Positions 2,935 through 62,436 of a stretch of 64,000 nucleotides of DNA are shown piece after piece; positions within the stretch are counted from its first letter, which is position 1; each line of letters starts with the position of its first letter. Origin of the DNA: Trypanosoma brucei (lineage: Eukaryota); contig CM000208.1 in the NCBI GenBank assembly GCA_000002445.1, positions 2,976,001 to 3,040,000 on the forward strand, written 5' to 3'. The notes below the pieces were generated by a model, which did no database searches, was not told the DNA's origin, and saw only the letters and a program-made list of their open reading frames with translations. The position numbers and the translations under genes were made by a program.

Positions 2935-2970
2935 ACACACACACACACACACACACACACAGAGAGAGAG
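2935..2970. repeat. Compound (AC)13(AG)5 microsatellite.
   Basis: Direct read: acacacacacacacacacacacacacagagagagag. Confidence 0.95.
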
Positions 2971-6652: not shown

Positions 6653-6875
6653 AGTTACGTTTTATTTGTCTTCCTTTTTAAGTACCCTTGTGTGAGAATG
6701 CAAATAGGGGAGGGGGAATGATTGTGAGGAAGAAGACAAATAAATGTACACGTGCCCATGTATGCATGAGGTGAAAGTAAAATCCGTAAAAAAGCGCAGC
6801 AAGCAAGCCAAGGGTTACGCCCTTCCCCCGCGGTTATTCACTTTGCACCACACAGCAGTTAAATGATCTCATACG

Positions 6876-20507: not shown

Positions 20508-20510
<3 letters not shown>

Positions 20511-20548
<38 letters not shown>
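20511..20548. repeat. (AT)19 dinucleotide microsatellite.
   Basis: Direct read: 38 bp of uninterrupted at-at. Confidence 0.95.
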
Positions 20549-20553
<5 letters not shown>

Positions 20554-23500
20554 TAAAAAAGTATGTAAATGACTGCTTGATATTCCCTGATCCATCTCGC
20601 GACTACTTCCCCCCTTCCTCTTTACCATTTTCGTCCTTTTTTTTTCTATTCGTTTTACACAACTTATTTTTTAAAAAAATTTTTTTTTAAAAATTAAGAG
20701 TCGTAAAGAAGACAAGCGAATATTAAAAGCACGAACATAACAACAGACGATTCACAAAATATTTTCTCCCTCCCGTTTTCGAAAAGTTGGGACACGAGGC
20801 CTAAACAACAACAACAAAAAAAAACATCATCGTTACAACGATGTTCCATGTGGCAAAAGGAAAACAAAAAAAAGAAGACAAAAACAAAAACAAAAAACAC
20901 AACCGCAACAATACCATGCGGAAGGGAAGATAGGAAAGTTCTTTTTTTTGAAATAATAGTAATAATAATAATTATTATTACTACTACTACTGCTACCATG
21001 GTGTCATCTCTGACATTTCTTGGCTTCCACATGGTATTGTTATAGTTGTTGTTGCAGTTGTGATATATATATATATATATATGTACCCATCTCAATTTAT
21101 TAAAATACAAGTCTAAAAAAAAATTATTATCGTTACTTCGTTTTGAACCTCACCCGTAATAAACCCTCCCCCACCACATTCTTTTCCGAGACGTACACCA
21201 CACCAAAACAAAAAACAAAAGACAAAAAACAAGAAGAAGAAGAGCATATCCACCCAACACTTACAAAATAAGAGAAGGGAGAAAAAAGAAGAAAGAAAAC
21301 AAAACAAAACAGAAGGAAAAAAATTCCCTTCGTAAAAATATGGAGTTATATTTATGTGCTTAAGGATGACCTTACGCAATTTCATTATAAAACAAATGCA
21401 ACAACGCATCCCTTTTTTTTTTTTTTTGCACTCTTTCTTCCACTTTGCTTTTTTAATTTTTTTACCGTACCACCTCTTTTACTACTTTTCCTGCAAATCC
21501 TATCTTTCTTTCTTTTCTTTTTTTTTTTAAATAAAAAACTTTTTGAAAACCTTTTCGCTTTCTCTTTCTCTTTCAATTTTATTTTTCTGTTTGCCACTGC
21601 TCCCATCACTTTTTTCTTTTTTACTTTTCTTTTCCCACGTTTGTATTTTCATCTTCTCACTTGAATGGAAACGGTTGCAAAAAAACATACACACGAACAT
21701 ATATATTATATTATATATATTATATATATAATTATATACTCAAAAAGTACAAATGTGTGTATATAGTATATATATATATATATTTATTTATTTATATATT
21801 GAAAGCGCAGCTCCCGCTATTGTAATTAAGGTAACGTCATGAGCTTATAGACAAGTGGAAAAGAGTTAATAAACGAATGAAGAGAACATAATTTTAGGAG
21901 ATGGAAACCATCATGCAGAAAATGACAAAACAGATAAAGAAAGAAAGAAAGAAAAGTAAGTAAAAAAAAAAGAGATGGTATGGATGGGGTGGTGGTGGTG
22001 AGAAATAAAACAACAGGAAGTAAAAGCAAAAAAAAAAAAATCAGGAGAAAATGAAGCGGTGGATGATCACAGGCGTGACTTGAGATCACACCCAAAATGA
22101 CACCGCCATATATACTTTCAACGACTGAATGGAGAAAAATAAAAAAGAAAATCAAGAAAAATAAAACCAATGCACAAATATATATATATATATATTTGCA
22201 TCACTCTTTTGTTTTGTTTACATCTGTCTCATGTGTACTTAAATACCCCAGCACGGTCTCTCGCACTTAATCAAACCTCCGACACGAATATGAAATATGT
22301 CAATAGATAATATCAGTTCTTCTTTTTGCTACACATCCGATTTCCACCTTCCCTTTTTCTCTTTTTTTTCTTTCTTTCTTTCTTTCTCTCTCTCTCTCGT
22401 TACACCAAACCCTCACATAATCCAAAACCACACAATAAAATAGAAAAAAGAAGAAGAAGGGAGAAACTAAAAAAAAAAAACAACAACCGAACAACAACAA
22501 CACCAACAAATAGAGGGTGCGTGTGTGGAAGAGAGAAAAGAGGGAGAGAGGAAATGGGGGAAAAAAAAGATTAACCATCAACGTTTCCAGATATATCTCT
22601 CTCTTTTTTTTTTTCCTTCTCCCTTTTTATTTTGATTTTTGTGCGCGTAGTCACTTAATATATGGTTTTCAGAAAAGCAAAAAAAAACAAAACAAAAAAC
22701 AACAACAACAGCAGACAACAAAAGAAGAAGAAAAATAAAAAAACAAAATCAAAAGGCACACATATCGTGCAAAAAAAAAAAAGAAACCCTTATAGAACAT
22801 CATATTCCCTTTCCTTATGCCACCACACCGTCACCTTCCCCCATCTGCATCTGCCTCCACCTCCGCCAATTAAAAAAAAAAAAGCAAAAACCAAAACCAA
22901 AACCAAAAACAACAAAAGACCATAAACGAAAAGTAAAATGAAATAAAGACTATAAATAAGACGAGACAAGAATAAAACAACAGGAGTGGCACCGGCAGCA
23001 TTACAAGTAAATATGAAATGGAGGGAAGGGGAGAGGGGTAAAATAAAAAAAAAAAAGGAAGGGACGCTCACGAAGGAGGGTTGGAGTTTGGATCTGGGAA
23101 TGATGTACTCTACAAACCAAAAACAACAACAACAACAACAACAACAACACACCACACGGAAATCATATGTGTAGTCGTCTCCACGTATTTAAACAGACGT
23201 GAAGAAGAAGAAGAGGGATTGAGGGATTGGTAAGAAGGGTTGCCCTCCCATCGACGCGCTGTTAAAATTAGAAGGACTTTAAAATCTCTCTTTTCTTTTC
23301 TTTTCTTTTCCTTTCTCTCTCTCTCTCTCTTTTGTTCTTATTTATTTATTTTTGCTTATTGTTCTGCTCCTACATATTAGCTCAATCACACACAGATATG
23401 TAAATAAATAAACGAATACACTAGTACATATATACATTCATATATATATGAATGTATATATGTATACCCTGCTCATTTCATTTTATTTTCTTTAAACCGT

Positions 23501-25635
23501 CAGCTTCAGCATTCTCAGTTACTCACGCATTCTTTATTTACTTCTCCTTGTTTTCATTGCGCTTGCGTTTGTATGTGGGATGAAAAGAATATAACAACAA
23601 TAACAATATTAATGGTAATAACACGTCCCAATAAACCACAACCAAAAACCAGTAAGCAAAATACAAATGGGAAAGGGGTGGAAAGAAAAAAAAGAAAACA
23701 CATTCGTTACAACAAACAGACGCACAAACTCGGAGTGTATGCACACCAAATGAAGCAAACTCAACGTAAAAGTCATACCGACCGAACAGCTGAAATAACA
23801 AACAAATCATCACACATTTGAAGTCAAATCAAAAACTAACGGCATCCATGAGCTTTTTTGCCCTTCCGCTCACAGTGTAGTGAGGAAACAAAAAAAAAAC
23901 AGGTAAGGGCACAACTGCATCATAGAAGTGAAGTGAAGTGAAGTGATGAGAGAAAGTTATAAAATATCTCTGCACTTCCCTCTCTGCCTACGTTCGTGAT
24001 CGGTGCAAGCGGAGTTTCGCAAACAAAATCAAAAAAAAACATAAAGTCAAAACAACACATTCAAAATGCACTCCCCTCCACTTTTTCTCTTTATTTCCTC
24101 CGGTTTTTATTTCATTCTGGTCACACATCCCAGTCTGTCACATCACATCACATTTCATTTGCCCCTTCGCTTATTATTTTTATTATATTTCCTCACCTAC
24201 ATTTTCCTCTTCTTTTTTTCTCATTAGTTATGTTTCTTTTTTTTTTTTCCTTGCTGTCTTCTACTTTTTCCATTCGCAGTGAAAGTAGTTTCCCCACTGA
24301 CGTATTTTTATTTTCTTTTCTTAATATAAGTATACCTATCATTAGGTATTTTGTCTGAACAAATATATATATATATATAACCGTACATATCCATACATAT
24401 ATATATATATATTTATTTATAAATTTTCTCTTACTTACATTTAGACAAAGTGGAAAATATCCCTCCCTCTCTCTTTTCTTATATTTGTTTTTGAGGTTCA
24501 CTCTTCGCCTATTATAATCACTGTTATATTTTTTGTTTTGTTTTTACCTACGTATCATGCGTGCCGACGGCAATGTGTAAAAAGGAAGGAAGTGAAAGGG
24601 GGGGGGGAATGATGGGCTTGAAAAATTTTTAGTTTTTCTTCTCATTTATTTATTTTTATCTTATTTATTTTTGTATTTTCCGGCTCACAGTTTCTTTTCC
24701 TTTGTAATTTTTCTTGAGCATGTGGCAGTAGTAGACATCGACCACGGGTTAAGTTTGTTCACACAATCACAAATGAAAGAAACTAAAAGAAACAGGAAAA
24801 AAAAACACCAATAATAATAATAATGGTAATAGTAATAACAAGCGAAAGACATAACTCGATTCTTTTGTAATTTCTTTTCCTTTTTTGCTTTTTCTCCACA
24901 CAGACACAGAACAACAGCTGCAACGACAATCATATCCACACACACACACACAAACAAACAAACACATAATATAAACAGTTGAAAGCAGGCACCAATGCCA
25001 TGCAGAAGGATGGAAAATGAAGATGGAATTGGGGTAATTAACTAAATAAGGATCACAAAACAAACAAAGACGCACACACAAACACATAAAGAAAGGAAAA
25101 AAAACAAAAGGAATATAACGGAGGTGTGGGAAGGAAAACATTAACGGGGTGGAGAGCCAAAAGTACATATAAATGAATGGACCCATATTCCTCTTTCTGT
25201 TTCTCCTTCCTTTCCCTCCGAGTTCAAAATGAGATTTTGGTGACTCATATATATATATATATATATTCTTTACATTTTTACCTTCATTTTCATCATGATG
25301 CGCGGAAAATAACATTAAAGGAAAACGGAAAGAAATGTATATACTCACACGCAAACTCATCTGGACGTAAACGTACGTGAAGGCGTCTTTTTTTTCCTTT
25401 TTCTTTTTTTAAATAAAGGAGGGGGCCCTTAGTTGGAAGTTTGTCTTCTCCCTTCTAATACCTGAAAACTTTACCTTTAAAGCCAACGTGCATTTCGAAA
25501 ACAGCTATCACAGCAATATTAAAGGGAGAAAAAAAAACAAATGAAGCAACGACAACAATAACAACACGTCCCCCCACTAACAAACAAACATCCGCGTAGA
25601 TAAACGCTAACACCTGCATGACGCTCCTCTACCGC

Positions 25636-28203
25636 CTACAGCGTTGGCATGCAGGAGTAAAAACTCTGAGCCCCACCTCGGTAGAAAACCCTTGGGGCTA
25701 AAGTTGCGGGATACGCCTGAAACGGATGTGCAAAACCATCAGAAGGTGTGGGACTCATAATTTCCCCACGACCCCGCGTGTACACGAGCCCTGCCGAGTA
25801 CATGTCCCGCCCATCCGACATTGAGCGTTGAGGTGGAGACATCATGCCTGGGAAACATGCCTGACTACTGATTGCCAGGCCGGGTGTGCCCATGGGAAGT
25901 TGTTGTGGTTGCTGCGGCGGCGGCGGCGGCGCACGCGTCATAATCATCGTGTCGGTTGGGGAACCGATATAACCGTAACCGCAGTGTGCACCACCAGTTG
26001 TTGCAAGTGGGAGCATAGGTTGACCACCAAGCGCAACAGCACCTGGAGAAGGTTGCGGATATGTATTGCCAGGGATCATCGAGTGTTCTACCAAACTCAT
26101 GGAGTTACTGTGTATCCCCTGCGTGTTACTCATGCTGCTGTGGCCCGTCGAACTTTGTCTTGGTTTCCGACTTCCTCCGCGACCCATACTACTCGGAGAA
26201 TGTGAACCATTAAAGTCACAGGGGAAACTTCCACCATACACAGCACCCGCCTCTCCCCACAGTGGCATGCCCATGCACTCCATTTTCTGTACAAGGTGCT
26301 GTCCATATACAGAGCAACGTATGGTGTGGAGGTGCGGCCTTATCTGCTCCGCAATGTGCTGCTGCTGTGCCTTTGTCACTTGCTGGAGTAAACGTTGGAC
26401 GACATAGTTTGCGTACTGATCCTGCATCATAAGCACGAGGTAGTTGCCATCTTCTGAAGCACCTAAAGGATGGGTGAGCGTCTCTACAACTTGCTGCAGT
26501 TCTTCTGCATTTGCCTTGATAATAGTTTTTTCGGCAACATTAGACGCAAATTTGCTACACGAAAGGGCATATACGTGCGGTATTAACTGAGTCACGAAGC
26601 GTTGTCGTAATTCCTCAGGCGCATTCAAAAGAGCATACTGCACAACATAATTTCCATACTGGTCCATCACGTACTCATGTACATTCTCGAGCACGGCTTC
26701 TAACATGGGGCGAATGTTCACTCCATGTGCTGTAGAACACCTCTCGAAAACGCACTGCAACACACGGCAACCGTACGGGTGACGCGAAAGCGCCTTTAAG
26801 TGCGGCATGAAGGAGTCCACCAACAGCTGCGTCTTCTCTGGGATGACTTCAATGAGTTTCTGGGCTACGTGGTTAGCGTTTTGGTCAAATATACATTCTA
26901 CAAGGCAATCCTTTAGCTCGAAGAGCACCTCCTCCCGCTTCTCCGGTGAGGCCTTTTCCAACATCTTCTGGATTACGCGGCAGCCGTACATCTGAAACGA
27001 GTACTCCTTTAACCTTCCGCTAACTTGCTTTATGAGTCGTTTGCACATGTCACTCTCAGTAGGTAGCATGTCCAACAACTTCTGTAAAACATAATTTCCA
27101 AATACGTCAATGATCAATTCATGTGTACGTGGAAACACCTCGTTGAAGATCGGTTCGATGTTCTCCGGATTATTTAGGAGACGTTGTACACAGCGGCTTC
27201 CGTCCTGATCCTTGCAAAGGGAAACAACCTGCAACCTGAATTCGTCAGAGACAGCAAGGGCATGATTCGATTCAAGATTATCGCGTGCTGTTGTCGGTTC
27301 TTCGTTTGTGAACCTGTCACCACCAACTTCACCGTTACTAGGCTGCTTAAATGCACCGTTCTTTTGTCCATAGTTTGACGTAGAACGGTTCCTGCTGCTG
27401 CCTGGTGCCCGTCGTGAGAGTGTATCAACTTGCTGAGGCTGCTGCCCACTGGATGTGTCCTGTTGCGTCAACGAGCCGTTTTGCATTCCTTCGCCGTTGG
27501 CTTTCATATTCGCGAGGTCAACAGCACCAACGTTTACACTAAAAGAACCGCTACTACCGGGTGCTGCGGAGGGTGGCTCGAGGGAGCCCATGGCCGAATG
27601 AAGCCGCTTGAAACCTTCCGTCTCCCCTCCTGTGGGAGCGGCGTCCCGCGACCCCCTCCGCGGCGGTGAGGCGCTCCCGCTGTTCAGCCTCGCCACTTCG
27701 CCGCAGAGGTCATGCCTTGGCGTGCGCTCTCCTACTGAAGTTCCTACTGCTGTGGAGCCCGTCACTTTAGTTGTGCCGCTGTCACCGACAACTCCGACAC
27801 CGTCTTGCGGTTGTGTGTTGGTGGCGGAGGTGCCACGTCTTCCTGCACCACTGCCACGTCTTCCGAAGTTATTGGAGCGTAGCGGAACAAGCATGCGCGG
27901 GTCACGGGGGTATTTGGAGTAATATTCCCGGTGATATTCCTCTGCATATCGGTACTCCTCCTCCGGGGGAACGTCCGCCTCAAGGCTACCAATACAAAGC
28001 GTCCCATCGGATGAAAACATGGTGAGAACCATAGGCGCCGTTTCAGCCCGCCGCACGTCACGCGGGTCGGCAAGTAAAGCCCCGCTGCCACTGAATATAT
28101 CGTCGGCTCCAGCAAGCCAATCTGCTTCACCGCTGCCTGGTGGCGTGTTTGATGAGACGGGTTCGTCCCAACCAGACATGTTTCGTGCTGCAATCCGTTT
28201 CAA
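25636..28203 (-). CDS. Pumilio/PUF-family RNA-binding protein (855 aa) with 8 Puf repeats and S/G/Q-rich flanks.
   Basis: Eight repeat cores are readable: FGNYVLQKLL, YGCRVIQKML, DQNANHVAQKLIE, PYGCRVLQCVFE, DQYGNYVVQYAL, KFASNVAEKTI, DQYANYVVQRLL, YGQHLVQKM. Confidence 0.8.
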   Translation of the reverse strand: MKRIAARNMSGWDEPVSSNTPPGSGEADWLAGADDIFSGSGALLADPRDVRRAETAPMVLTMFSSDGTLCIGSLEADVPPEEEYRYAEEYHREYYSKYPRDPRMLVPLRSNNFGRRGSGAGRRGTSATNTQPQDGVGVVGDSGTTKVTGSTAVGTSVGERTPRHDLCGEVARLNSGSASPPRRGSRDAAPTGGETEGFKRLHSAMGSLEPPSAAPGSSGSFSVNVGAVDLANMKANGEGMQNGSLTQQDTSSGQQPQQVDTLSRRAPGSSRNRSTSNYGQKNGAFKQPSNGEVGGDRFTNEEPTTARDNLESNHALAVSDEFRLQVVSLCKDQDGSRCVQRLLNNPENIEPIFNEVFPRTHELIIDVFGNYVLQKLLDMLPTESDMCKRLIKQVSGRLKEYSFQMYGCRVIQKMLEKASPEKREEVLFELKDCLVECIFDQNANHVAQKLIEVIPEKTQLLVDSFMPHLKALSRHPYGCRVLQCVFERCSTAHGVNIRPMLEAVLENVHEYVMDQYGNYVVQYALLNAPEELRQRFVTQLIPHVYALSCSKFASNVAEKTIIKANAEELQQVVETLTHPLGASEDGNYLVLMMQDQYANYVVQRLLQQVTKAQQQHIAEQIRPHLHTIRCSVYGQHLVQKMECMGMPLWGEAGAVYGGSFPCDFNGSHSPSSMGRGGSRKPRQSSTGHSSMSNTQGIHSNSMSLVEHSMIPGNTYPQPSPGAVALGGQPMLPLATTGGAHCGYGYIGSPTDTMIMTRAPPPPPQQPQQLPMGTPGLAISSQACFPGMMSPPQRSMSDGRDMYSAGLVYTRGRGEIMSPTPSDGFAHPFQAYPATLAPRVFYRGGAQSFYSCMPTL

Positions 28204-46812: not shown

Positions 46813-48237
46813 TTACCTCGCGTATGGCCAATTTAAAGGAACAGTGCCATCGTGTCCGGGTATTTGAGAGTTGTATAACTGCCATACATCCCCCAACGGC
46901 TGCGGCCGTGGCTGTTGAATGGTTCCGGTGCAACGTCGCTGCCCTGCGCCAAGAGTTACCACCGTGCTCAAAAACGAGCCATCAAAAACAGGTTGAACCG
47001 CCACTGCTTCAGCAGCGCCACGGGGGAGGAAAAGTAACGTTCCCACCGCAGCGGGATCATCCAACTGAGGAGACGGAGCAACGGTAATTGTCCGCGGAGC
47101 CGCTGCCTGTTGTGCCATGATGGAGACAAGTTGTGAGAGAAGAGTATTCATTTGATCTTGTGGAACTGTTCTGCCCGTTGTAGCGGAAGCATATCCAGTG
47201 CCGCAAACCCCCGCTGTTCTTAATGCGGCAAGTATTTCTTGGGTATTGGTGTCTCCCATTGGCGGTGTAGTGGCGGAGGGGCTACGTGGCCCTGAAGTTG
47301 GCTTCTGAGGGGCATTTTGTGGGAGACCACATGTTCCATTTAATCCTTGTCGAAGCGCCATTTGCACAACGGGACTTGGTTCAAAGGAGGGTGAACTAAC
47401 GTTGGGCACCCACCCGGATCCTCCATCGTGTCGACCTTCTTCTGGTGCTTTCCTCATCCCTGCGCTATGTTCTTCTTTATTGAAACCGCTGCCGTTATTT
47501 CCAACGACACTCTTTTTCCCCTTGATATTGTTGGAGTGCTGAGGAGATGTGCATGCTGAGGCATTTGGTTCAGCAACAACCTTTGGTGCACGCTTGAAGG
47601 CACCTTGTGCGTTTGGATCAACGCAAACAACATGGATAAAATTGCATCGTTCCCCAGTAAAACAGGTTTGGTTCGTTTCAAAGTACTTGCAGCGGATCAG
47701 CGGCTCAGCAATGTCATGACGGGCACAAGCTCCGCGCGTGTTAAGAACTTGTTCACTGGGGATTAAATTTACGGTAGTCATATCAGCGGAAAGAACCTCC
47801 AAAACTTCTCCGGCTGGTAGCCGTTCGTATGTACATTCACTCTCGTGGCGCCATATGTAATTCACATGAATGGGATGCGTCTCCAACGTGTTGTAATCAA
47901 CATCGGCATGAACAAATTTGCAACCGCTACCCATGGTGCATGAACTCGGCTCATATGATTTATAATTGCGGCAGGCCACCAACCGGGTAATATTCAACCG
48001 TGCTGATGGCATGTGCACTATGAGATGTGAAGGAACCTCATACAAACACTTAAACTCGGCGTCAAATACTTTTGTTAAATTAGCATTCGCACAGTTCTCG
48101 GTGCTGACACTCAACGGAAAATTTGTGCTTCCACACAACTCATTGCTTTGTTTCCATTGTTCCCAAATTTCATCAATTGCCCACATCGGCAACAACTCGT
48201 TGTCCATACTGTCCCCCTCGATAATATCCATCGTCAT
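46813..48237 (-). CDS. CCCH zinc-finger protein, paralogue A of a tandem family (474 aa). It has two CCCH fingers around a conserved HPIHVNYIWRHE core and a long S/P/G/Q-rich tail.
   Basis: Finger 1 CRNYKSYEPSSCTMGSGCKFVHA (C-x10-C-x5-C-x3-H), finger 2 CKYFETNQTCFTGERCNFIHV (C-x8-C-x5-C-x3-H). Family identity rests on domain-level similarity to the ORFs at 52670, 56498 and 61528. Confidence 0.7.
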   Translation of the reverse strand: MTMDIIEGDSMDNELLPMWAIDEIWEQWKQSNELCGSTNFPLSVSTENCANANLTKVFDAEFKCLYEVPSHLIVHMPSARLNITRLVACRNYKSYEPSSCTMGSGCKFVHADVDYNTLETHPIHVNYIWRHESECTYERLPAGEVLEVLSADMTTVNLIPSEQVLNTRGACARHDIAEPLIRCKYFETNQTCFTGERCNFIHVVCVDPNAQGAFKRAPKVVAEPNASACTSPQHSNNIKGKKSVVGNNGSGFNKEEHSAGMRKAPEEGRHDGGSGWVPNVSSPSFEPSPVVQMALRQGLNGTCGLPQNAPQKPTSGPRSPSATTPPMGDTNTQEILAALRTAGVCGTGYASATTGRTVPQDQMNTLLSQLVSIMAQQAAAPRTITVAPSPQLDDPAAVGTLLFLPRGAAEAVAVQPVFDGSFLSTVVTLGAGQRRCTGTIQQPRPQPLGDVWQLYNSQIPGHDGTVPLNWPYAR

Positions 48238-52669: not shown

Positions 52670-53620
52670 TTATGACCTGCAGAGAACAGGATAGTAAGGA
52701 TTATGGCAATATGAAGCGGGCCGTGAGTTGGTTGCCATGGCGCTCCGTCTGGAGACTGAAGCATCGCTGAAGGCTGCAACAAGTGTCGGTCGGCTCTTCA
52801 CGACGGTACTCGTGCGGACGCGTGCGGTCACTCGGCATCGTGGAATTACGCTGCATGTTGCTGGAAGTGGCTCACCAGCGGCATCTACACGAAAAGACAA
52901 GGCGGTGTAACCGCCTGCTCCCATGGATAACGCTGGCGCCTCACGCTCCGGTGACGAAATGCAGAAGTCGCTTAACATCGGAGTCCCGCTTGCAAACGTA
53001 CGCGGCATCTTTTGAGAATCCGTGGCACTCGCGACTGCAGGGGACCTCGGCGTTGGAGTTACGGCTGCGGTACGGGCGGGTGCCCGTTTAAAGTCACCCA
53101 CAACAGTCGGGTCAACACAAAGTGTATGAATAAAACTGCATCGCTCGCCACGGCTGCACATTCGGTTGGTTGTATAAAGAGGGCAACGCATCAGTGAGTG
53201 CGGGAGTGCATTATGGTGTGCCACTGACCCGCGTGTGACGAGGACAAGTTCGCTGGAAATAAGTTCATGCTCTTGAGGGTTTTCCTGTGAGCAAACCTCC
53301 AAAACGTCTCCAGCTGGTAGCCGTTCGTACGTGCAATGGTCCTCATGGCGCCATATGTAATTCACATGAATGGGATGCGCCTCCAGCGTGCTGTAATCAA
53401 CATCGGCATGTACGAAGCGACAACTTTCCTCCTTTGCGCAGGAGTTTGGAACGCCAGATCTGTAATTGCGGCAAATCACAAGGCGGGAGATATTCAACCG
53501 TGCTGGTGGAACATGTAAAACAAAGTGGGCGGGCACCAGGTAAAGGTACTTGAAGTTGGGATCAAATACCTCCATGACGCCGTTTTGAACGTATTTGGCG
53601 CGATTGTCCTGCGATGACAT
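52670..53620 (-). CDS. CCCH zinc-finger protein, paralogue B (~317 aa from MSSQDNRAKY). The ORF tracker start at 53887 reads through a poly-pyrimidine 5' region.
   Basis: Carries VFDPNFKYLYLVPAHFVLHVPPARLNISRLVICRNYRSGVPNSCAKEESCRFVHADVDYSTLEAHPIHVNYIWRHEDHCTYERLPAGDVLEV and a second finger CPLYTTNRMCSRGERCSFIHT. About 85-90% nucleotide identity to paralogue A across the core. I verified the ATG at 53618-53620 by hand. Confidence 0.7.
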   Translation of the reverse strand: MSSQDNRAKYVQNGVMEVFDPNFKYLYLVPAHFVLHVPPARLNISRLVICRNYRSGVPNSCAKEESCRFVHADVDYSTLEAHPIHVNYIWRHEDHCTYERLPAGDVLEVCSQENPQEHELISSELVLVTRGSVAHHNALPHSLMRCPLYTTNRMCSRGERCSFIHTLCVDPTVVGDFKRAPARTAAVTPTPRSPAVASATDSQKMPRTFASGTPMLSDFCISSPEREAPALSMGAGGYTALSFRVDAAGEPLPATCSVIPRCRVTARVRTSTVVKSRPTLVAAFSDASVSRRSAMATNSRPASYCHNPYYPVLCRS

Positions 53621-56497: not shown

Positions 56498-57358
56498 TTA
56501 TAACCCGTAAGGATTATGTCGGTAGAAACGTGGGCGCCGAGGAGCACTGCCATCAGAAATGGTGTTCATGTCAGATGTAGTGCAATCATCATGTTGATGG
56601 CCACTTCCAGAAAGTCCGAGATGCCCGTTATCGCGACCTGAAGTGGGACTCGTCACATCGCTACTGCCGACGGAAGGAACTCTTTTGTGCACAACCATCG
56701 CGAAACCAAGTGGCGTCCCATCGGGAAATGAACCGGGAGAACTGTCGAGAGGGCTCCCAGCTGATAATTTTTCTCCGGATTTATTACCACTGGCGTGATG
56801 GCGCCGATGAGAGCGGCAAAGAATACGATTGGAGCTGAGATCCACTTCAGGGTCGACGGCAACAGCATGAACAAAGTTGCAGGACGCGCCACGATGACAT
56901 ACGCCATTAAAATAGTAATGTGCGCAATGAGAAAGTGGTCTTCCCTCCGCAGAGGGCTGTGGAATAACTGCTTGTGTAACAAGAACGAGTCCGCTAGCAA
57001 TCCTCTCAATTGGTTTTTTATTATTGGGAAGCAGAACCTCAAGCACATCACCCGATTGACAGCGTTCGTATGTACATTCACTCTCATGGCGCCATATGTA
57101 ATTCACATGAATGGGATGCGCCTTCAGCGTGCTGTAATCAACATTGGCGTGTAGAAACCTGCAATCGCTACCCGCAAGACATGAGTTCGGGTCGTAAGGT
57201 TTATAATGAGTACAAATCATTGTGTACGGGTTGCTTGGATGCACATGTGGCATGTGGACCACTGAATGAGAAGGTATCTCGTACATGTACCTGAACTCTA
57301 TATCAAATACCTCCACAGTGGTTTTACGGTTTTTTGCCATAGATTTCTTTGAGGGCAT
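56498..57358 (-). CDS. CCCH zinc-finger protein, paralogue C (286 aa).
   Basis: Finger 1 CTHYKPYDPNSCLAGSDCRFLHA, core HPIHVNYIWRHESECTYERCQSGDVLEV, finger 2 CAHYYFNGVCHRGASCNFVHA. The coding region is ~98% identical at nucleotide level to paralogue D, apart from one ~150-bp patch. Confidence 0.65.
   Translation of the reverse strand: MPSKKSMAKNRKTTVEVFDIEFRYMYEIPSHSVVHMPHVHPSNPYTMICTHYKPYDPNSCLAGSDCRFLHANVDYSTLKAHPIHVNYIWRHESECTYERCQSGDVLEVLLPNNKKPIERIASGLVLVTQAVIPQPSAEGRPLSHCAHYYFNGVCHRGASCNFVHAVAVDPEVDLSSNRILCRSHRRHHASGNKSGEKLSAGSPLDSSPGSFPDGTPLGFAMVVHKRVPSVGSSDVTSPTSGRDNGHLGLSGSGHQHDDCTTSDMNTISDGSAPRRPRFYRHNPYGL
56508..57308. repeat. Duplicated block, copy 1: ~800 bp near-identical to 61541-62341. 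It matches almost exactly the coding region of CCCH paralogue C.
   Basis: Long runs of exact identity read directly, e.g. taaggattatgtcggtagaaacgtgggcgccgaggagcactgccatcagaaatggtgttcatgtcagatgtagtgcaatcatcatgttgatggccacttccagaaagtcc in both copies. Identity ends at the stop codon on one side and near the start codon on the other. Confidence 0.85.
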
Positions 57359-60300
57359 TATGTCTTTGCTTCAATAGTTGCTTTCTTTTTTTCCCCCCTT
57401 TTTGTGCTTCTTGCTGTTGCTTTGTTGGTGTTTTCTTATGCTTTTTTTCTATTGTGTTTGCCATGTGTCCATTTTTTTTTTTTTAGTTTATGGTGAGGAA
57501 TGACAAAGAATAAGAAAATTAACGGAGGATAAATTTGATCAAATAAGAAGTTTTCGCATGTATACAGACAAATCAGTTGATTGGTACGAATGTTAATACA
57601 AGAAGATATTACGCTCACCCTGAACCACAAGGAAGTACATATTACAAAACTAAGAAAACAGCAACAGCAACATTATTTAAATTGGAAAGAGAAAAGAGTC
57701 ACAACACCAAAAAAACGAAATAATTATTTTCTCATGCTTTACCGTCAGCACTTACTGAACACATCACCACACAATGGGAAATTGCGAAGATGTTGTGTTC
57801 AAGAAGTGGGAATGACAGCACTAGATGAAGAAATAAGTGATTACAACGTCTGACTTCATCATCCCTTCTTCTTTCCCGCGCAAATTTATGACAAGTAGAG
57901 GAGATTATTAAGAAAAGAGGAAAAAAAAACAATAAAAAACAATAAAAGAACAAAGAAACGAAAAAAAAAGAGGAGGATGAACACATACGCGCACGTTCTT
58001 TTTCCCCACCCGTGACCCCGAGAGTCACGCTTTCGCTTAATCATCCCACACCCCATATTTTCTTTCCCTTTATTTCCTTCAGTTACCTTCGTCTTTTTCT
58101 TTCTTCCCCTCATCTCTCTCTCTCTCTCTTATTTTCTTTTTTTTTTGTTTTTTGTTTGTAAGTTAAATTGTAGAGGAGTGTGCGTATGCATTAAATCCAT
58201 ACCTTTCTTCACTATTTTTTTAAAATTTCTTTTACCTCTCCTCCTATTTTTTATTCTCTCTTTACCTTTTGTTAACAAAACAAAACAAAGAAAAAATTAC
58301 ATAATTTCTCCCTTCTCCTCTTCCTCTTCCTCCTTTTTTTTCTCTCTCGTTCTTTCTATTTACTCTGTTTCCTTTAATATTTTCACAAAAAAAAACGGTA
58401 AGACGGCATTAACGACACCGGTAGAAACATTTGGAAGAAGCAGAGGAGGAAAAAAAAAAGAAAGAAAGCAATTAGAAGGGAGAGTTAAAAAAGGTACATC
58501 CCCAAAATAAGACATTAACAAAACAAAACAAAGGAAAAAAAAGAAAAAAGAAGACAAACACGAACACAAAAACACACACACACACAAAAAAAAGAAACAA
58601 TGATCGGCACAGTTTGTTATTATTTACTACTGCTGCTGCTCATTTTTTTTTAATTTGTTTATTTGGATTTTTCTTTTATTCTCTCATCGCTGTTTGAGGT
58701 ATTTGGAACGATTATTCATATCATATTCATCTTCCCTCGCGTGTTGTCTTCGTTTTACATCCACTCGACTCTCCCTCATTCTATCTTCCCTTCCCCTCCA
58801 ATTGCGTCAAATCAATAAAAAAAAGAAAAGAAAAAAAAAGACAAAGACAAAGAAAAATGCGACTAAACCCTTCGCACCTCTTTTATCTTTATCCTTGCTT
58901 TTTTTTTTAAAAAAAAGAGAAATTTACAAAAATAATAACAATAATGATTTTAAAAAAGTTTCATTATTATTTTTATTATTGTGGTCATATATATATTTCT
59001 TTTCTTTTCTTTTCTTCTTTTCTTTTCTTTGTTAAAATTTGAAACATTTGTCTCTTCCTTTACACTCTTTCTTTCTTTCTTTCACCCTTTCTCTCTCTCT
59101 TTTCTTTCCCCCTTCACATACACTTAAACTTGAACTTTTCATTCCTTCACACCTTCATACAACATACACATATGTGCGGTGACTCGCATTTTAGTTCCAT
59201 CGCCACATTATTTTACTCCGCAAGCACTTCAATATAATATATATATATATATATATATTTATTTATTTATTTAAAAATAGAAGAAAATTGAGAAACAAAC
59301 GAAAAGAGGTTGAGGAATAGTAATGGCGGAGGTGATGAGGCAAACGTGTTGCTCCCAACTAATACAGCTGCGGGTCCGACGGCAACTTCTGTTTTTTTCT
59401 TTTCTTTCCTTTTCTTTTCTTTTCTCTTCTTTTCTTTCCTTTTCCTTCATCTTTTTTATTCTTTACTTTACCTTACTCTTCTCTTCACTTTTATTTATTT
59501 ATTATATATTTGTTTGTTTCTTCATTCTTTTTTTCTTCGTTTTTAAATCCCACCGCTGCGAAGTGATGGTCCATTTTTCTTTTCCTTTGTTTTTCGAAAT
59601 TGCAGGACAGAGGAGTAAAATGCAAGAGCGTGTAAAAAGAAGTTGTTGAAGGAAGATACGAAAGAAAAAAAAAGGAGGAGGGGGGGGGGTGAAATAACAC
59701 ACCGGAGAAGGGAAAGAGACAAATAAAAAGAGAAAAAAGAAAGGAAGAAAGAAAAAAAAATACATATATTGACTGAGCGAATAACTGAGTAGTTCTTCTT
59801 TCTTTTTTTTTCCTTCTTCTCTTTTTCTTCCTTTTCTGTTAGGGTTTCTCAGCATTCTGACATTATTTATTATTTTTTTTGTTGTTGTTTCCCCTGCCAT
59901 AAAGGAGAGGAACATGGAGTGGAAGGAAGTTTGGAGATAAATAGGGAAAACATGATTGAGTGAAGTGGATTGGGAAGTCATGGCGTAACCCGTTCCATTC
60001 ATTACGTTGCATATATATATATATATTATTTTGCATTTGTTTGTTTGTGTTCATTGTGTTGTTGTTGTTGTTGTTTTTATCTTCTAGAGGGTAGTTATGA
60101 CGACAACAGAGGCTCAGCAAGCAAAATAGTAGTAATAGACAATAATAATAATAATAACAATAGCAATAGTAATAATAATAATAAGCACTAAAATTAAAAT
60201 TTTCTCTTCTTTATATTTTAAAAACAGAGCAATACCACCTTTCCATATCCGACATTTTACTCTTGCCTCCTTCTTAAGATTTTCACTCGTGTTATTATAT

Positions 60301-61428
60301 CAACCTTAGACAAAATTGCCATGAACGGACGAACCCCTCTCATTAGTAATATTATTATCAACGCTATTATTTCTTTTTTTTTTCCCTCCCTTTTAAGTTG
60401 ACACTCCCTTCTCCATTCTCTCATTACATTGGATCTCTTATTTTTCTTTGCTTTTTTCTTTTTTAAAAAAACATTCTCATTTATCTATCTGTTTGTTGTT
60501 CCTTCACTAACCACTATATTTATATTTATTTATAACAGAGGTTACCGCAGAAATTCTTAAGGAAAAGCAAATCAAAATATATTTTGTTGTGGCTCTCCTT
60601 CGATTTCTCTCGCTCTTTTTTCTTTTCTTTTCTTTTATTTATTTTTTCTCCCACACCACACCACGTGTTGTGGTATGCGGAAACGGAGCAGCGGGACGCG
60701 AAAGTGTGGAGAAATAATAAACAAAATCGGGCGTGCCACATGCAAAACAAAAAAAAAGAAAAAAAAAGAAAAGAAGCGGATCTACAGAACACAGGTACGC
60801 TCCAGCAAATACCTGTAAGGCATATTAAGCAGCAATACAAATAAACAAGAAAAAAGAAAAGGAAGAAGAAAAAGAAAAAGAAAAATGACATTTGCAAGGA
60901 GGGTAGGCGGGGGAAACGATCGTTAAAGTAAAAAAATTCACACACATTTTCATTTCTTTGTTTGTTTTTCTTTTTCTTTTGTATGAACCACAATCATGCA
61001 GCATCGTTTCTGGACGTTTGGCTGCCTTCTCTTTCCTTCTATTTTTCCGTTTCTTCATCTCTTTGGTTCCTTAACAAAAAAAAAAAAAGAGTCGTATCCG
61101 TCACGACCGTTCACGTTAATAAAAGATATGTTGTGAATTTAAACTATTTTCGATCGACCCCGCAGTAAAACAAAACGCAAAAAAAAAAAATTCAACAACA
61201 AGAGCAAACGAACGAAAATTAAAACGGCAACGGCAAAAAAAAACGCGCCTTTTTTTACGGTATGAAGGGAAAGGAAGATTGAGGAAAAGAAAACACGCAT
61301 AGTATCACTTCGCCCACAATCAAAATGGACGCACCCAAAAAGGGCCGCAGGGATCAGACAAAAAGTTAAAGTAAAAAAAAAGAAAAAGAAAGAAAAAAGA
61401 AAGGTGGACAAACGGGGGAGGGGAAACA

Positions 61429-61461
<33 letters not shown>

Positions 61462-61527
61462 ATTACAAACAAGTCCACAAGACGAGTGCAGCAGAGTAGA
61501 CTAAATGAGAGAAGGGATTCCCCACAT

Positions 61528-62436
61528 TTACAGCTGCTGGTAAGGATTATGTCGGTAGAAACGTGGGCGCCGAGGAGCACTGCCATCAGAAATGGTGTTC
61601 ATGTCAGATGTAGTGCAATCATCATGTTGATGGCCACTTCCAGAAAGTCCATATTGCATACTTCCAACTGCAGAGGCGGAAAATGATGAGCCGCTGTAAA
61701 CTGTAGAAGGGGCTCGCTTACAAACCATTGTTGCAATGCTGGCGGGTACTCCTGCAGCACACGGGTTCGGAGAACTGTCGAGAGGGCTCCCACACGCCGT
61801 CTTCACAGCGGATTTATTACCACTGGCGTGATGGCGCCGATGAGAGCGGCAAAGAACACGTTTGGAGCTGAGATCCACTTCAGGGTCGACGGCAACAGCA
61901 TGAACAAAGTTGCAGGACGCGCCACGATGACATACGCCATTAAAATAGTAATGTGCGCAATGAGAAAGTGGCTTTGCCCTCGGTCTCCGGCGAGGAATAA
62001 CTGCTTGTGTAACAAGAACGAGTCCGCTAGCAATCCTCTCAATTGGTTTTTTATTATTGGGAAGCAGAACCTCAAGCACATCACCCGATTGACAGCGTTC
62101 GTACATACAGCACTGCTCGTGGCGCCATATGTAATTCACATGAATGGGATGCGCCTTCAGCGTGCTGTAATCAACATTGGCGTGTAGAAACCTGCAATCG
62201 CTACCCGCAAGACATGAGTTCGGGTCGTAAGGTTTATAATGAGTACAAATCATTGTGTACGGGTTGCTTGGATGCACATGTGGCATGTGGACCACTGAAT
62301 GAGAAGGTATCTCGTACATGTACCTGAACTCTATATCAAACGCACTGGTCACATCAGTTGCTGTGGTCATCTTGACTTTGTTTGGTTCTTCTTGATATTC
62401 TTCTCTTTCTTGATGAACTATTCGGTGCTGTGCCAA
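61528..62436 (-). CDS. CCCH zinc-finger protein, paralogue D (302 aa as ORF). The start may be the internal Met, MTTATDV.
   Basis: Same two-finger architecture as C. Identical C-terminus ...GLSGSGHQHDDCTTSDMNTISDGSAPRRPRFYRHNPY. The nucleotide block 61541-62341 matches 56508-57308. Confidence 0.65.
   Translation of the reverse strand: MAQHRIVHQEREEYQEEPNKVKMTTATDVTSAFDIEFRYMYEIPSHSVVHMPHVHPSNPYTMICTHYKPYDPNSCLAGSDCRFLHANVDYSTLKAHPIHVNYIWRHEQCCMYERCQSGDVLEVLLPNNKKPIERIASGLVLVTQAVIPRRRPRAKPLSHCAHYYFNGVCHRGASCNFVHAVAVDPEVDLSSKRVLCRSHRRHHASGNKSAVKTACGSPLDSSPNPCAAGVPASIATMVCKRAPSTVYSGSSFSASAVGSMQYGLSGSGHQHDDCTTSDMNTISDGSAPRRPRFYRHNPYQQL
61541..62341. repeat. Duplicated block, copy 2 (CCCH paralogue D coding region).
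   Basis: See copy 1. Flanking UTR and intergenic sequence on both sides is unrelated between the two loci. Confidence 0.85.

What the first reader, a model, noticed from the sequence alone, without database searches (positions are those of the whole stretch)
56508..57308. ~800-bp near-identical tract shared by paralogues C and D matches the coding region almost exactly: gene conversion signature
56508-57308 and 61541-62341 are virtually identical at nucleotide level, while the paralogues A/B versus C/D are far more diverged. Identity begins within the last two codons before the stop, and the flanking UTR and intergenic DNA, about 5 kb apart, is unrelated. Identity ends again near the start codon. 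A recent segmental duplication would carry flanks. Identity confined to the CDS instead points to ectopic gene conversion homogenising the two coding sequences. Alternatively it could be a collapsed or mis-assembled region.
Basis: seen in the sequence. Interest (0 to 1): 0.55.

Follow-up and report, generated by a model that had tools for sequence, protein, structure and literature searches.

The report
Mosaic gene conversion between ZC3H37 and ZC3H38
Two neighbouring Trypanosoma brucei genes for RNA-binding zinc-finger proteins (ZC3H37 and ZC3H38) share four letter-for-letter identical stretches of coding sequence set in otherwise unrelated DNA, which is the footprint of repeated copying between the genes (gene conversion), a process already known in trypanosome gene arrays and here documented for this regulator pair.

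Summary
The repeat is real, at the stated coordinates (offset 5033), but it is not "virtually identical". It is 86% identical over 801 nt, as a mosaic. Four blocks (221, 110, 163 and 111 nt) plus a 24-nt island total 612 nt, with no synonymous and 2 non-synonymous differences. They are separated by four equal-length patches (189 nt) that are saturated (pS 0.90) and no more alignable than shuffled sequence. The flanks are unrelated.

The window is T. brucei TREU927 chromosome 10. A to D are ZC3H35 to ZC3H38, tandem CCCH proteins; ZC3H36 to ZC3H38 end in the MKT1-binding HNPY motif.

Both copies are present in two further T. brucei assemblies, so this is not a collapse. In T. b. gambiense, ZC3H37 carries ZC3H38-type sequence in two short tracts (16-163 and 65-92 nt). 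One TREU927-specific variant sits in both paralogues.

In the patches, each paralogue is closer to the T. congolense orthologue (about 38%) than to the other paralogue (23%). In the blocks they are 99% identical.

CDS-limited or partial homogenisation also occurs in this cluster in T. melophagium and T. cruzi, whereas T. vivax has a plain whole-unit array.

Verdict: ectopic gene conversion is supported. It is a new example of a known kind, of modest interest.

The parts
56498..57358 (-). ZC3H37 CDS (paralogue C; 286 aa; Tb927.10.12780; EAN78652)
   Evidence: The ORF is listed. The exact protein matches T. b. brucei TREU927 EAN78652, and its 90% cluster is named ZC3H37.
61528..62370 (-). ZC3H38 CDS (paralogue D; 280 aa from ATG at 62370; Tb927.10.12800; EAN78654)
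   Evidence: Searches give the ORF. The exact protein matches EAN78654. The name ZC3H38 is inferred from gene order and the IDs.
57087..57307 (-). Identical block 1 in ZC3H37 (221 nt, 0 differences; partner 62120-62340). It encodes FDIEF through zinc finger 1 to WRHE.
57071..57086 (-). Divergent patch 1 (partner 62104-62119): SECT in ZC3H37, QCCM in ZC3H38. The ZC3H37 version is nucleotide-identical to ZC3H35. In T. b. gambiense ZC3H37 it is replaced by the ZC3H38 version.
56961..57070 (-). Identical block 2 (110 nt, 0 differences; partner 61994-62103)
56939..56960 (-). Divergent patch 2 (partner 61972-61993), 5 residues upstream of zinc finger 2: QPSAEGR in ZC3H37, RRRPRAK in ZC3H38. The basic ZC3H38 form is shared with T. 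congolense and T. vivax.
56776..56938 (-). Identical block 3 (163 nt, 2 non-synonymous differences N/K and I/V; partner 61809-61971). It includes zinc finger 2 (56867-56926).
56618..56775 (-). Divergent patch 3 (158 nt; partner 61651-61808). It consists of patch 3a (56760-56775), a 24-nt identical island (56736-56759) and patch 3b (56618-56735). It lies in a predicted disordered linker. Patch 3a is ZC3H38-type in T. b. gambiense ZC3H37.
   Evidence: Local alignment of patch 3b is no better than shuffles. Residues 185-276 have pLDDT below 50.
56507..56617 (-). Identical block 4 (111 nt, 0 differences; partner 61540-61650). It encodes GLSGSGHQ...RFYRHNPY and ends with the C-terminal HNPY motif (56507-56518).
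   Evidence: HNPY as the MKT1-binding motif and the ZC3H37/38 interactions with MKT1 are from PMC3985637.
61540..62340 (-). The whole mosaic tract in ZC3H38, in register with 56507-57307 at offset 5033.
52670..53620 (-). ZC3H36 CDS (paralogue B; 316 aa; EAN78651). Its 24-codon core at 53339-53410 is nearly identical in nucleotides to the other three paralogues.
46813..48237 (-). ZC3H35 CDS (paralogue A; 474 aa; EAN78650; no HNPY). Its core at 47839-47910 is shared with the other paralogues.
57308..61539 (-). Spacer between ZC3H38 and ZC3H37. It holds the first 51 nt (17 codons) of the ZC3H37 CDS, the last 12 nt of the ZC3H38 CDS (3 codons plus the stop), the ZC3H38 3' flank and the ZC3H37 5' flank. 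It is low-complexity and AT-rich, and is unrelated to the corresponding flanks of the other copy.

Best explanation
ZC3H37 and ZC3H38 are old tandem duplicates in the four-gene ZC3H35-38 cluster of T. brucei chromosome 10. Their intergenic and UTR DNA, and four internal patches, have diverged beyond recognition. Most of the coding sequence is kept identical by repeated, short-tract, non-allelic (interlocus) gene conversion. I infer that this conversion is homologous-recombination repair that uses the other copy, 5 kb away on the same strand, as template.

Tracts can start and resolve only where the two copies are still alike, so homogenisation is confined to the CDS and broken up by the divergent patches. 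The outcome is two proteins with the same zinc-finger and MKT1-binding modules. They sit under different UTRs and differ in a few discrete patches.

Shown here: the mosaic, the bimodal divergence, the presence of both copies in three assemblies, the subspecies-specific tracts, and the discordance with the T. congolense orthologue.

Inferred: the enzymology (RAD51/BRCA2-type HR with mismatch-limited heteroduplex), the direction of individual events, and any selective value.
For: 1. Mosaic with abrupt edges. There are 612 nt of blocks with 0 of 135.5 synonymous and 2 non-synonymous differences, against 189 nt of patches with pS 0.90 and pN 0.46. The run-length permutation test gives P < 5e-5.

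2. Patch 3b (123 nt) aligns no better than shuffled sequence, and the flanks are unrelated. The duplication is therefore old while the blocks are young.

3. Block 4 is predicted disordered and evolves fast between species (22/37 identical to T. congolense), yet it is 111/111 nt identical between the paralogues. Protein constraint cannot explain that identity.

4. Discordant relationships. In the blocks, 37-38 is 208/210 against 128/210 to T. congolense. In the patches, 37-38 is 13/57 against 22/57 and 21/57 to T. congolense.

5. Both genes are present and colinear in T. b. gambiense and T. b. equiperdum.

6. T. b. gambiense ZC3H37 equals ZC3H38 at 21 clustered sites in two tracts, positions 225-236 and 483-547 counted from the first base of the FDIEF codons. 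It keeps ZC3H37-type sequence between and beyond them. The ZC3H37 orthologues differ at 26/801 sites, whereas the ZC3H38 orthologues differ at 2/801.

7. Position 728 is T in both TREU927 paralogues and C in all four genes of the other two genomes. Positions 111 and 116 separate the paralogues in the other two genomes but not in TREU927.

8. Block lengths (110-221 nt) and tract lengths (16-163 and 65-92 nt) fit measured T. brucei recombination. Efficiency rises from 50 to 200 bp of homology and mismatches impede it (PMC1904282). Break-induced mosaic VSG formation gives templated insertions under 300 bp, and 100 bp of flanking homology is sufficient (PMC13233330).

9. The same cluster shows lineage-specific partial homogenisation elsewhere. 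In T. melophagium two copies are identical from -7 to +822 with unrelated flanks. In T. cruzi the 37-like and 36-like genes are identical from -178 to +329, with tree incongruence between the gene halves.

10. A 24-codon core has pS 0.14-0.22 among T. brucei paralogues but 0.74-1.1 between orthologues of different species.
Against: 1. Only one ZC3H37/38-type protein from T. congolense was found, and no T. congolense DNA. Positional orthology of each copy could not be tested, and the age of the duplication is inferred only from saturation.

2. The subspecies-specific tracts rest on single assemblies. The T. b. gambiense assembly was ordered on the TREU927 template, and near-identical paralogues are prone to consensus errors. 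No reads were available to check this.

3. All four unalignable patches have exactly the same length in both copies. Conversion does not explain this, so a constraint on length must be invoked.

4. No direct evidence of the recombination pathway or of non-reciprocity is available from sequence alone.
Confidence: 0.85

Rival explanations
1. Conversion plus selection. The blocks are homogenised by conversion, but the patches persist because selection removes converted alleles. The candidate specificity element is the basic RRRPRAK or neutral QPSAEGR lead-in to zinc finger 2. The pair would then be a maintained 'same module, different patch and different UTR' design rather than a passive by-product.
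For: Each copy keeps the outgroup state in different patches. ZC3H38 keeps the basic patch 2 seen in T. congolense and T. vivax. ZC3H37 keeps patch 1, much of patch 3b and the GL tail. Patch lengths are exactly conserved. The two mRNAs are reported in different contexts: ZC3H38 among slender bloodstream-form markers, and ZC3H37 mRNA reduced after ZC3H20 RNAi in procyclic forms.
Against: Patch 1 and patch 3a have been overwritten in T. b. gambiense ZC3H37 without loss of the reading frame, so at least those patches are dispensable. High divergence alone is a barrier to heteroduplex formation (PMC1904282) and would preserve patches without selection. No functional data separate the two proteins.
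Confidence: 0.3
2. The blocks descend from one recent replacement of the whole CDS, or a recent CDS-only duplication. The divergent patches were imported afterwards from other donor genes.
For: The ZC3H37 version of patch 1 is nucleotide-identical to ZC3H35, so at least one patch could be an import from another family member.
Against: No donor for patches 2, 3a or 3b, or for the N-terminal segments, exists in the window or in the other fetched loci. No additional T. brucei paralogue appeared in the protein search. The patches of both copies each share residues with the T. congolense orthologue at homologous positions, which fits vertical descent. This scenario still requires ectopic conversion.
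Confidence: 0.07
3. A plain recent segmental duplication without conversion. The CDS is similar because little time has passed.
For: T. vivax shows such a state, with three copies in a 3.73-kb unit that is 99-100% identical including the intergenic DNA. Kramer et al. 2010 counted tandem CCCH genes with more than 40% identity as recently duplicated.
Against: Neutral flanks should be at least as similar as synonymous sites, but they are unalignable while the blocks have 0 of 135.5 synonymous differences. The internal patches are saturated. Variants are shared between paralogues within a strain, and tracts are strain-specific.
Confidence: 0.03
4. An assembly artefact. Either one gene was assembled twice, or two diverged genes were made partly identical by co-assembly of reads.
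For: Near-identical 100-220-nt blocks are the kind of sequence in which consensus calling can blur paralogue-specific SNPs. The T. b. gambiense assembly used TREU927 as template.
Against: Three assemblies from three subspecies have both genes, with the same unique flanks, the same interleaved patches and the same 5-kb spacing. The interleaving of copy-specific patches with identical blocks over 800 nt is not what a collapse produces. The proteins have been handled separately in experiments: two-hybrid for both, and V5-tagged ZC3H38.
Confidence: 0.03
5. The identity is maintained by purifying selection on the nucleotide sequence itself, through codon usage or an RNA element.
For: The blocks include the most conserved protein segments, namely the zinc fingers and the HADVDY...WRHE core.
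Against: Orthologues of different species differ at most synonymous sites in the same segments (pS 0.74-1.1). Block 4 is disordered and poorly conserved between species, yet identical between the paralogues. Selection does not create strain-specific variants shared by both paralogues.
Confidence: 0.02

Closest known systems
Concerted evolution and sequence mosaics in T. brucei tandem gene arrays (Jackson 2007, PMC1855330; Jackson et al. 2010, PMC2854126)
   Same: Both involve gene conversion between tandem duplicates. Mosaics differ between T. b. brucei and T. b. gambiense, and paralogues group by genome rather than by position.
   Different: The 2010 recombination analysis covered arrays with more than 3 copies. 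In the 2007 study non-coding DNA was usually as conserved as the CDS or more so, and only the histone arrays showed non-coding DNA more variable than the CDS. Here there is no repeat unit at all: the flanks are unrelated and homogenisation is confined to parts of the CDS. The ZC3H35-38 gene IDs and names were not found in those papers.
Phosphoglycerate kinase genes of T. brucei (Le Blancq et al. 1988, as cited in PMC1855330)
   Same: Both are tandem paralogues with distinct expression and localisation in which one copy is a chimaera made by gene conversion.
   Different: PGK genes encode metabolic enzymes with a three-gene chimaera structure. The present case is a pair of post-transcriptional regulators with at least four homogenised blocks and subspecies-specific tracts. 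I did not examine the PGK sequences here.
Break-induced mosaic VSG formation in T. brucei (Smith et al. 2026, PMC13233330)
   Same: Both show short templated insertions (under 300 bp, mean about 46-55 bp) bounded by shared sequence. In the VSG system the donor is left intact, the reaction is RAD51- and BRCA2-dependent, and about 100 bp of flanking homology is sufficient. The tracts in T. b. gambiense ZC3H37 (16-163 and 65-92 nt) and the block sizes here fit those parameters.
   Different: That system diversifies an expressed antigen gene from silent archive copies under immune selection. Here two core-chromosome housekeeping-type regulators homogenise each other, and no break source or selection is known.
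ZC3H20/ZC3H21/ZC3H22 cluster of T. brucei (Liu et al., bioRxiv 10.1101/646547)
   Same: It is also a tandem cluster of two-finger CCCH proteins, two of them with a C-terminal MKT1-binding motif and stage-specific expression. Its duplications appear lineage-specific in phylogenies.
   Different: It is a different chromosome and a different family. Those authors interpret species-wise clustering as independent duplication, and conversion was not discussed ('gene conversion' occurs 0 times). I did not analyse that locus.

Membership tests
Non-allelic (interlocus) gene conversion / concerted evolution | Two physically separate copies exist (not a collapse or a single locus) | tested here: met
   Both genes are found with unique flanks in TREU927, T. 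b. gambiense and T. b. equiperdum assemblies, colinear over 17.4 kb. No read-level check was possible.
Non-allelic (interlocus) gene conversion / concerted evolution | Sharply bounded segments of near-zero divergence, including synonymous sites, embedded in old divergence | tested here: met
   Blocks have 0 of 135.5 synonymous differences. Patches have pS 0.90. The flanks are unalignable. The permutation test gives P < 5e-5.
Non-allelic (interlocus) gene conversion / concerted evolution | Paralogues within a genome are more alike than orthologues between species in the converted segments, but not in the unconverted ones | tested here: met
   Blocks are 208/210 between paralogues against 128/210 to T. 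congolense. Patches are 13/57 between paralogues against 22/57 and 21/57 to T. congolense. Only one T. congolense copy was available, so positional orthology was not tested.
Non-allelic (interlocus) gene conversion / concerted evolution | Phylogenetic incongruence along the alignment, or lineage-specific shared variants | tested here: met
   88 sites split the sequences into 37 versus 38. 21 clustered sites place T. b. gambiense ZC3H37 with ZC3H38. Site 728 groups both TREU927 paralogues together. This depends on assembly accuracy.
Non-allelic (interlocus) gene conversion / concerted evolution | Non-reciprocal transfer (donor unchanged) by homologous recombination | not testable with these tools
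   This needs experimental break-repair assays or pedigrees. ZC3H38 is almost invariant between subspecies (1-3 differences in 801 nt) while ZC3H37 changed. That is compatible with ZC3H38 acting as an unchanged donor.
T. brucei tandem gene array in the sense of Jackson 2007/2010 (repeated unit of CDS plus intergenic sequence; the 2010 recombination analysis took arrays with more than 3 copies) | A repeated unit including the intergenic and UTR sequence | tested here: not met
   The flanks of all four paralogues are unrelated. The T. vivax orthologous locus does meet the criterion, with a 3.73-kb unit present 3 times.
CCCH (C3H1) zinc-finger RNA-binding proteins | C-x7-11-C-x5-C-x3-H motifs | tested here: met
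   Each of the four proteins has two motifs, C-x10-C-x5-C-x3-H and C-x8-C-x5-C-x3-H. The cysteines and histidines are invariant across 18 homologues. UniRef names the proteins C3H1-type domain-containing.
CCCH (C3H1) zinc-finger RNA-binding proteins | Pfam zf-CCCH family score above the curated threshold | tested here: inconclusive
   ZC3H37 and ZC3H38 score below the gathering thresholds (zf_CCCH_4 23.1 against 29; zf-CCCH 15 against 20.5). ZC3H36 passes zf-CCCH (22.2 against 20.5).
MKT1-recruiting activators with the H(N/D)PY motif | An (H/N)(D/E/N/Q)PY motif and interaction with MKT1 | tested here: met
   HNPY is present at residues 281-284 of ZC3H37, 274-277 of ZC3H38 and 306-309 of ZC3H36, and is absent from ZC3H35. 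The two-hybrid interaction of ZC3H37 and ZC3H38 with MKT1 and their activator behaviour when tethered come from the literature, not from tests here (PMC3985637; PMC4055773).

The most novel reading that the evidence does not exclude
The ZC3H35-38 cluster may be a recurrent, selectively maintained 'shared module, private patch, private UTR' system across Trypanosoma. Conversion keeps the zinc-finger and MKT1-binding modules of differently regulated paralogues identical. A few conversion-resistant patches, notably the basic or neutral lead-in to zinc finger 2, set different RNA targets. The repeated independent homogenisation seen in T. brucei, T. melophagium, T. cruzi and T. vivax would then be an adaptive feature of post-transcriptional regulator evolution, not neutral repair noise.
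Probability: 0.15. Interest if true: 0.5.

Novelty: new member of a known kind. Interest (0 to 1): 0.3.

Why it matters
1. It changes how this pair should be read. Kramer et al. 2010 counted tandem CCCH genes with more than 40% identity as recent duplicates. The data here indicate an old duplication whose coding sequence is continually re-homogenised. Trees of this family, and probably of similar trypanosome regulator clusters, therefore understate duplication ages and overstate lineage-specific duplication.

2. It has practical consequences. With 612 nt identical, CDS-directed RNAi, probes, short reads and most peptides cannot tell ZC3H37 from ZC3H38. Only the N-termini, the four patches and the UTRs can.

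3. The patches are a short, concrete list of candidate determinants for any functional difference between the two proteins.

4. The subspecies-specific tracts give a natural read-out of tract length and homology needs for ectopic recombination in core chromosomal genes of T. brucei. That can be compared with the recently measured mosaic-VSG reaction.

Tried and rejected
1. Gapped or frame-shifted relationships between the divergent patches, and reverse-complement relationships. Local alignments are no better than shuffles for patch 3b (P = 0.4), patch 3a and patch 2. Patch 1 is marginal because of the shared TGT and TAC codons. Rejected.

2. Residual homology in the flanks. Only low-complexity, non-colinear hits were found. 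The one roughly colinear 61-nt hit downstream of the stop codons falls on a polypurine or polypyrimidine run. Rejected.

3. A donor for the patches elsewhere in the window or in the T. vivax, T. cruzi or T. melophagium loci. None was found.

4. cDNA-mediated (processed-mRNA) conversion as the reason for CDS-limited identity. In T. brucei the tract lies wholly inside the CDS. In T. cruzi it starts about 8 nt upstream of the first AG that follows a polypyrimidine tract, and it contains a further polypyrimidine tract. The boundaries do not match mRNA ends. Rejected.

5. T. congolense DNA for a positional-orthology test. The protein is held only in UniRef and nr, and no contig is on record. This was a dead end.

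6. Literature search for a prior description of conversion between ZC3H37 and ZC3H38. Nothing was found under the gene names or IDs. The library is incomplete, so absence is not proof.

7. Fold search of the predicted 165-residue zinc-finger domain against the PDB. There was no match better than E = 1.7. This does not bear on the finding and was not pursued.
Full report
**Source and genes**

The four paralogues translate to proteins that are exact matches to Trypanosoma brucei brucei TREU927 entries on a 4.05-Mb chromosome. They are EAN78650 (A, 474 aa), EAN78651 (B, 316 aa), EAN78652 (C, 286 aa) and EAN78654 (D, 280 aa). Sources name A ZC3H35 and C ZC3H37.

With the gene IDs given in PMC3985637 and PMC4055773, the cluster reads as follows:
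- ZC3H35: Tb927.10.12740
- ZC3H36: Tb927.10.12760
- ZC3H37: Tb927.10.12780
- ZC3H38: Tb927.10.12800

D being ZC3H38 is inferred from gene order. All ORFs of 200 aa or more in the window are on the minus strand, as expected for one polycistronic unit.

Each protein has two CCCH motifs. ZC3H36, ZC3H37 and ZC3H38 end in HNPY, and ZC3H35 does not.

From the literature:
- H(N/D)PY is the MKT1-binding motif, and ZC3H37 and ZC3H38 interact with MKT1.
- ZC3H36 to ZC3H38 activate a tethered reporter, whereas ZC3H35 represses it.

**The observation**

At a constant offset of 5033 nt, 56507-57307 matches 61540-62340. The tract is not uniformly identical.

In gene orientation it is made of these segments:
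- Block 1: 221 nt, 0 differences.
- Patch 1: 16 nt, SECT versus QCCM.
- Block 2: 110 nt, 0 differences.
- Patch 2: 22 nt, QPSAEGR versus RRRPRAK, just before zinc finger 2.
- Block 3: 163 nt, 2 non-synonymous differences.
- Patch 3a: 16 nt.
- An identical 24-nt island.
- Patch 3b: 118 nt.
- Block 4: 111 nt, 0 differences, ending in the HNPY codons.

The N-terminal 17 codons (ZC3H37) or 10 codons (ZC3H38) are unrelated, as are the last 2 or 3 codons. There is no indel anywhere in the 801 nt.

Permuting the 110 differences never gave an identical run longer than 97 nt in 20,000 trials, against 221 observed. The flanks show chance-level ungapped identity and only low-complexity, non-colinear blastn hits.

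**Two ages in one gene**

Nei-Gojobori counts were made on codon-aligned segments, which differ slightly from the nucleotide run boundaries above.
- Blocks plus island (612 nt): 0 synonymous differences in 135.5 synonymous sites, and 2 non-synonymous differences.
- Patches (189 nt): pS 0.90 and pN 0.46.

Patch 3b aligns no better than shuffled sequence, on either strand. An AlphaFold2 model places residues 14-180 in a confident domain and residues 185-276 in disorder. The model has mean pLDDT 69.8 and was built from 18 sequences.

Block 4 lies in the disordered tail and is poorly conserved between species, at 22/37 identical to T. congolense and 12/37 to T. vivax. It is nevertheless 111/111 nt identical between the paralogues. 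Purifying selection on the protein therefore cannot be the cause of the identity.

**Not an artefact**

The loci fetched from T. b. gambiense DAL972 (L001) and T. b. equiperdum (L002) are colinear with window 64000-46605 at about 96.5% identity. Both contain ZC3H38, ZC3H37, ZC3H36 and ZC3H35. ZC3H38 is not annotated in L002, but it is intact there.

**Exchange within the species**

I aligned the six ZC3H37 and ZC3H38 sequences from the FDIEF codons to the HNPY codons, and count positions from the first base of the FDIEF codons.
- 88 sites separate ZC3H37 from ZC3H38.
- 21 sites, in two clusters (225-236 and 483-547), place T. b. gambiense ZC3H37 with the ZC3H38 sequences. These clusters correspond to patch 1 and to patch 3a plus the I/V site.
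- That gene keeps ZC3H37-type sequence at 347-368, at 479 and from 572 onwards.

The implied tract lengths are 16-163 nt and 65-92 nt. No other source of the ZC3H37-type patch 3a is known, so transfer from ZC3H38 into ZC3H37 in the gambiense lineage is the parsimonious reading. That direction is an inference.

The ZC3H37 orthologues differ at 26/801 sites between T. b. brucei and T. b. gambiense, while the ZC3H38 orthologues differ at 2/801. The reported genome average for coding sequence is 99.2% identity.

Site 728 is T in both TREU927 paralogues and C in the four genes of the other two genomes. Sites 111 and 116 distinguish the paralogues in the other two genomes but not in TREU927.

Caveat: these points rest on single assemblies, and the gambiense assembly was ordered on the TREU927 template.

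**Comparison with other species**

The protein search found one ZC3H37/38-type protein in T. congolense, and homologues in T. vivax, T. grayi, T. cruzi and T. melophagium.
- In the blocks, ZC3H37 and ZC3H38 are 208/210 identical to each other and 128/210 and 127/210 identical to T. congolense.
- In the patches they are 13/57 identical to each other, but 22/57 and 21/57 identical to T. congolense.

Each copy retains the outgroup state in different places. ZC3H38 keeps the short N-terminus and the basic patch 2. ZC3H37 keeps patch 1, much of patch 3b and the GL tail. The split seen in the patches is thus at least of the order of the T. brucei-T. congolense divergence, whereas the blocks coalesce within T. 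brucei.

**The same cluster elsewhere**

- T. vivax has three 275-aa copies in a 3.73-kb unit that is 99-100% identical including the intergenic DNA. This is a plain array.
- T. melophagium has two copies identical from -7 to +822 with 0 mismatches in the first 800 nt. Their upstream DNA, C-termini and downstream DNA are unrelated.
- In T. cruzi Dm28c the 37-like and 36-like genes are identical from -178 to +329 apart from a divergent patch inside zinc finger 1. Beyond that they show ordinary paralogue divergence.

Neighbour-joining trees were built separately for the two halves of the domain. The C-terminal half gives clean 35, 36 and 37/38 groups. The N-terminal half joins the two T. cruzi genes to each other.

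A 24-codon core (HADVDY...WRHE) has pS 0.14-0.22 among T. brucei ZC3H35, ZC3H36 and ZC3H37, against 0.84 in the 46 codons upstream. The same core has pS 0.74-1.1 between orthologues of different species. In T. vivax the low-pS pair is 35 with 37 (0.11), and in T. cruzi it is 313 with 437 (0.00). Partial interlocus homogenisation is therefore recurrent and lineage-specific in this cluster.

**Mechanism**

The pattern is what homology-dependent repair using the paralogue as template would leave. Experimental work in T. brucei gives these parameters:
- Recombination efficiency rises linearly from 50 to 200 bp of homology.
- Recombination is impeded by mismatches.
- Mismatches may be corrected by short-patch repair (PMC1904282).
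- Breaks in a VSG are repaired from homologous family members with templated insertions under 300 bp (mean about 46-55 bp).
- That reaction is RAD51- and BRCA2-dependent, leaves the donor intact, and runs at full efficiency with 100 bp of flanking homology (PMC13233330).

The 110-221-nt blocks and the 16-163-nt and 65-92-nt tracts seen here fall inside those ranges.

I infer a sequence of stages.
1. A whole-unit duplicate arises, as T. vivax has today.
2. The low-complexity intergenic DNA diverges fastest.
3. Conversion then becomes confined to the CDS, as in T. brucei and T. melophagium.
4. Strongly diverged internal patches act as barriers that split the CDS into separately homogenised blocks.

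It is not decided whether the patches persist only because of that barrier or also because of selection. The overwriting of patches 1 and 3a in T. b. gambiense shows the barrier is not absolute.

Expression notes from the literature fit different UTR-borne regulation of near-identical proteins. ZC3H38 is listed among slender-form markers, and ZC3H37 mRNA fell after ZC3H20 RNAi in procyclic forms. I did not test this.

**What is known**

Gene conversion, mosaics and concerted evolution in T. brucei tandem arrays, including subspecies-specific mosaics, are established (PMC1855330 and PMC2854126). The PGK genes are the classical case.

In the 2007 survey, non-coding DNA was usually at least as conserved as the CDS, and only the histone arrays showed non-coding DNA more variable than the CDS. 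The 2010 recombination analysis covered arrays with more than 3 copies. The present locus has no repeat unit.

I found no description of conversion between ZC3H37 and ZC3H38. The CCCH survey counted such tandem pairs as recent duplicates.

**Verdict**

The interpretation as gene conversion is supported, with confidence 0.85. It is a new, well-resolved example of a known process, of modest general interest. It has practical relevance for anyone working on these two regulators.

Noticed in passing
window 47839-47910 (ZC3H35), 53339-53410 (ZC3H36), 57080-57151 (ZC3H37), 62113-62184 (ZC3H38): A 24-codon core (HADVDY...HPIHVNYIWRHE) is nearly nucleotide-identical in all four paralogues, with pS 0.14-0.22 against 0.84 just upstream. 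Orthologues of other species differ at most synonymous sites there (pS 0.74-1.1). This points to an older conversion event spanning the whole family. The ZC3H37 form of patch 1 is nucleotide-identical to ZC3H35.
   Followed up: yes
L005 (T. melophagium JAJSEB010000031) 2205-3113 and 4759-5676: Two tandem ZC3H37/38-like genes are 100% identical from 7 nt before the ATG to nt +822. Their upstream DNA, last ~30 codons and downstream DNA are unrelated. This is a second, independent CDS-limited homogenisation.
   Followed up: partly
L004 (T. cruzi Dm28c PRFA01000097) 10001-10942 and 12254-13567: The 37-like (313 aa) and 36-like (437 aa) genes are identical from -178 to +329, except for a divergent patch inside zinc finger 1 (TMGENCK versus PKGEGCR). 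Trees of the N- and C-terminal halves disagree.
   Followed up: partly
L003 (T. vivax SOPI01000011) 1-11000: Three 275-aa ZC3H37/38-like genes sit in a 3.73-kb tandem unit that is 99-100% identical including the intergenic DNA. This is a plain whole-unit array, unlike T. brucei. A 164-nt stretch of these genes is 88% identical to the ZC3H35-like gene but only 67% identical to the ZC3H36-like gene.
   Followed up: partly
window 56618-56775 vs 61651-61808, and the other patches: All four unalignable patches have exactly the same length in the two paralogues. The T. congolense protein aligns without gaps through patch 3. The cause of this length conservation in a predicted disordered linker is unexplained.
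   Followed up: partly
ZC3H37 residues 14-180 (window about 56819-57319): AlphaFold2 predicts one compact, beta-rich domain (pLDDT about 87-96) containing both CCCH motifs and the conserved core. Foldseek finds no match in the PDB better than E = 1.7. It may be a kinetoplastid-specific fold.
   Followed up: partly
window 5978-6631: A 138-nt tandem repeat (4.7 copies, 97% identical) lies in the 5' part of the 933-aa ORF at 3851-6652 (minus strand). It encodes a 46-residue K/E/R-rich repeat.
   Followed up: no
window about 18000-25600: A 7.6-kb AT-rich stretch (GC 0.32-0.38) has no ORF of 200 aa or more. It lies downstream of the 855-aa ORF at 25636-28203 on the minus strand. It could be a very long 3' UTR or an unannotated non-coding region.
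   Followed up: no
L002 (T. b. equiperdum CM010681) 4974-5816: An intact ZC3H38 ORF, with one S-to-N change near the N-terminus, is present but no gene was called there in that assembly's annotation.
   Followed up: yes
window 57359-61527; L001 7367-7729, 8452-8766, 4358-4696: Short hypothetical genes (104-120 aa) are annotated in the low-complexity spacers between the zinc-finger genes in T. b. gambiense. The TREU927 accession numbering skips EAN78653 between ZC3H37 and ZC3H38, which suggests a similar call there. These are probably spurious ORFs in UTR or intergenic DNA.
   Followed up: no
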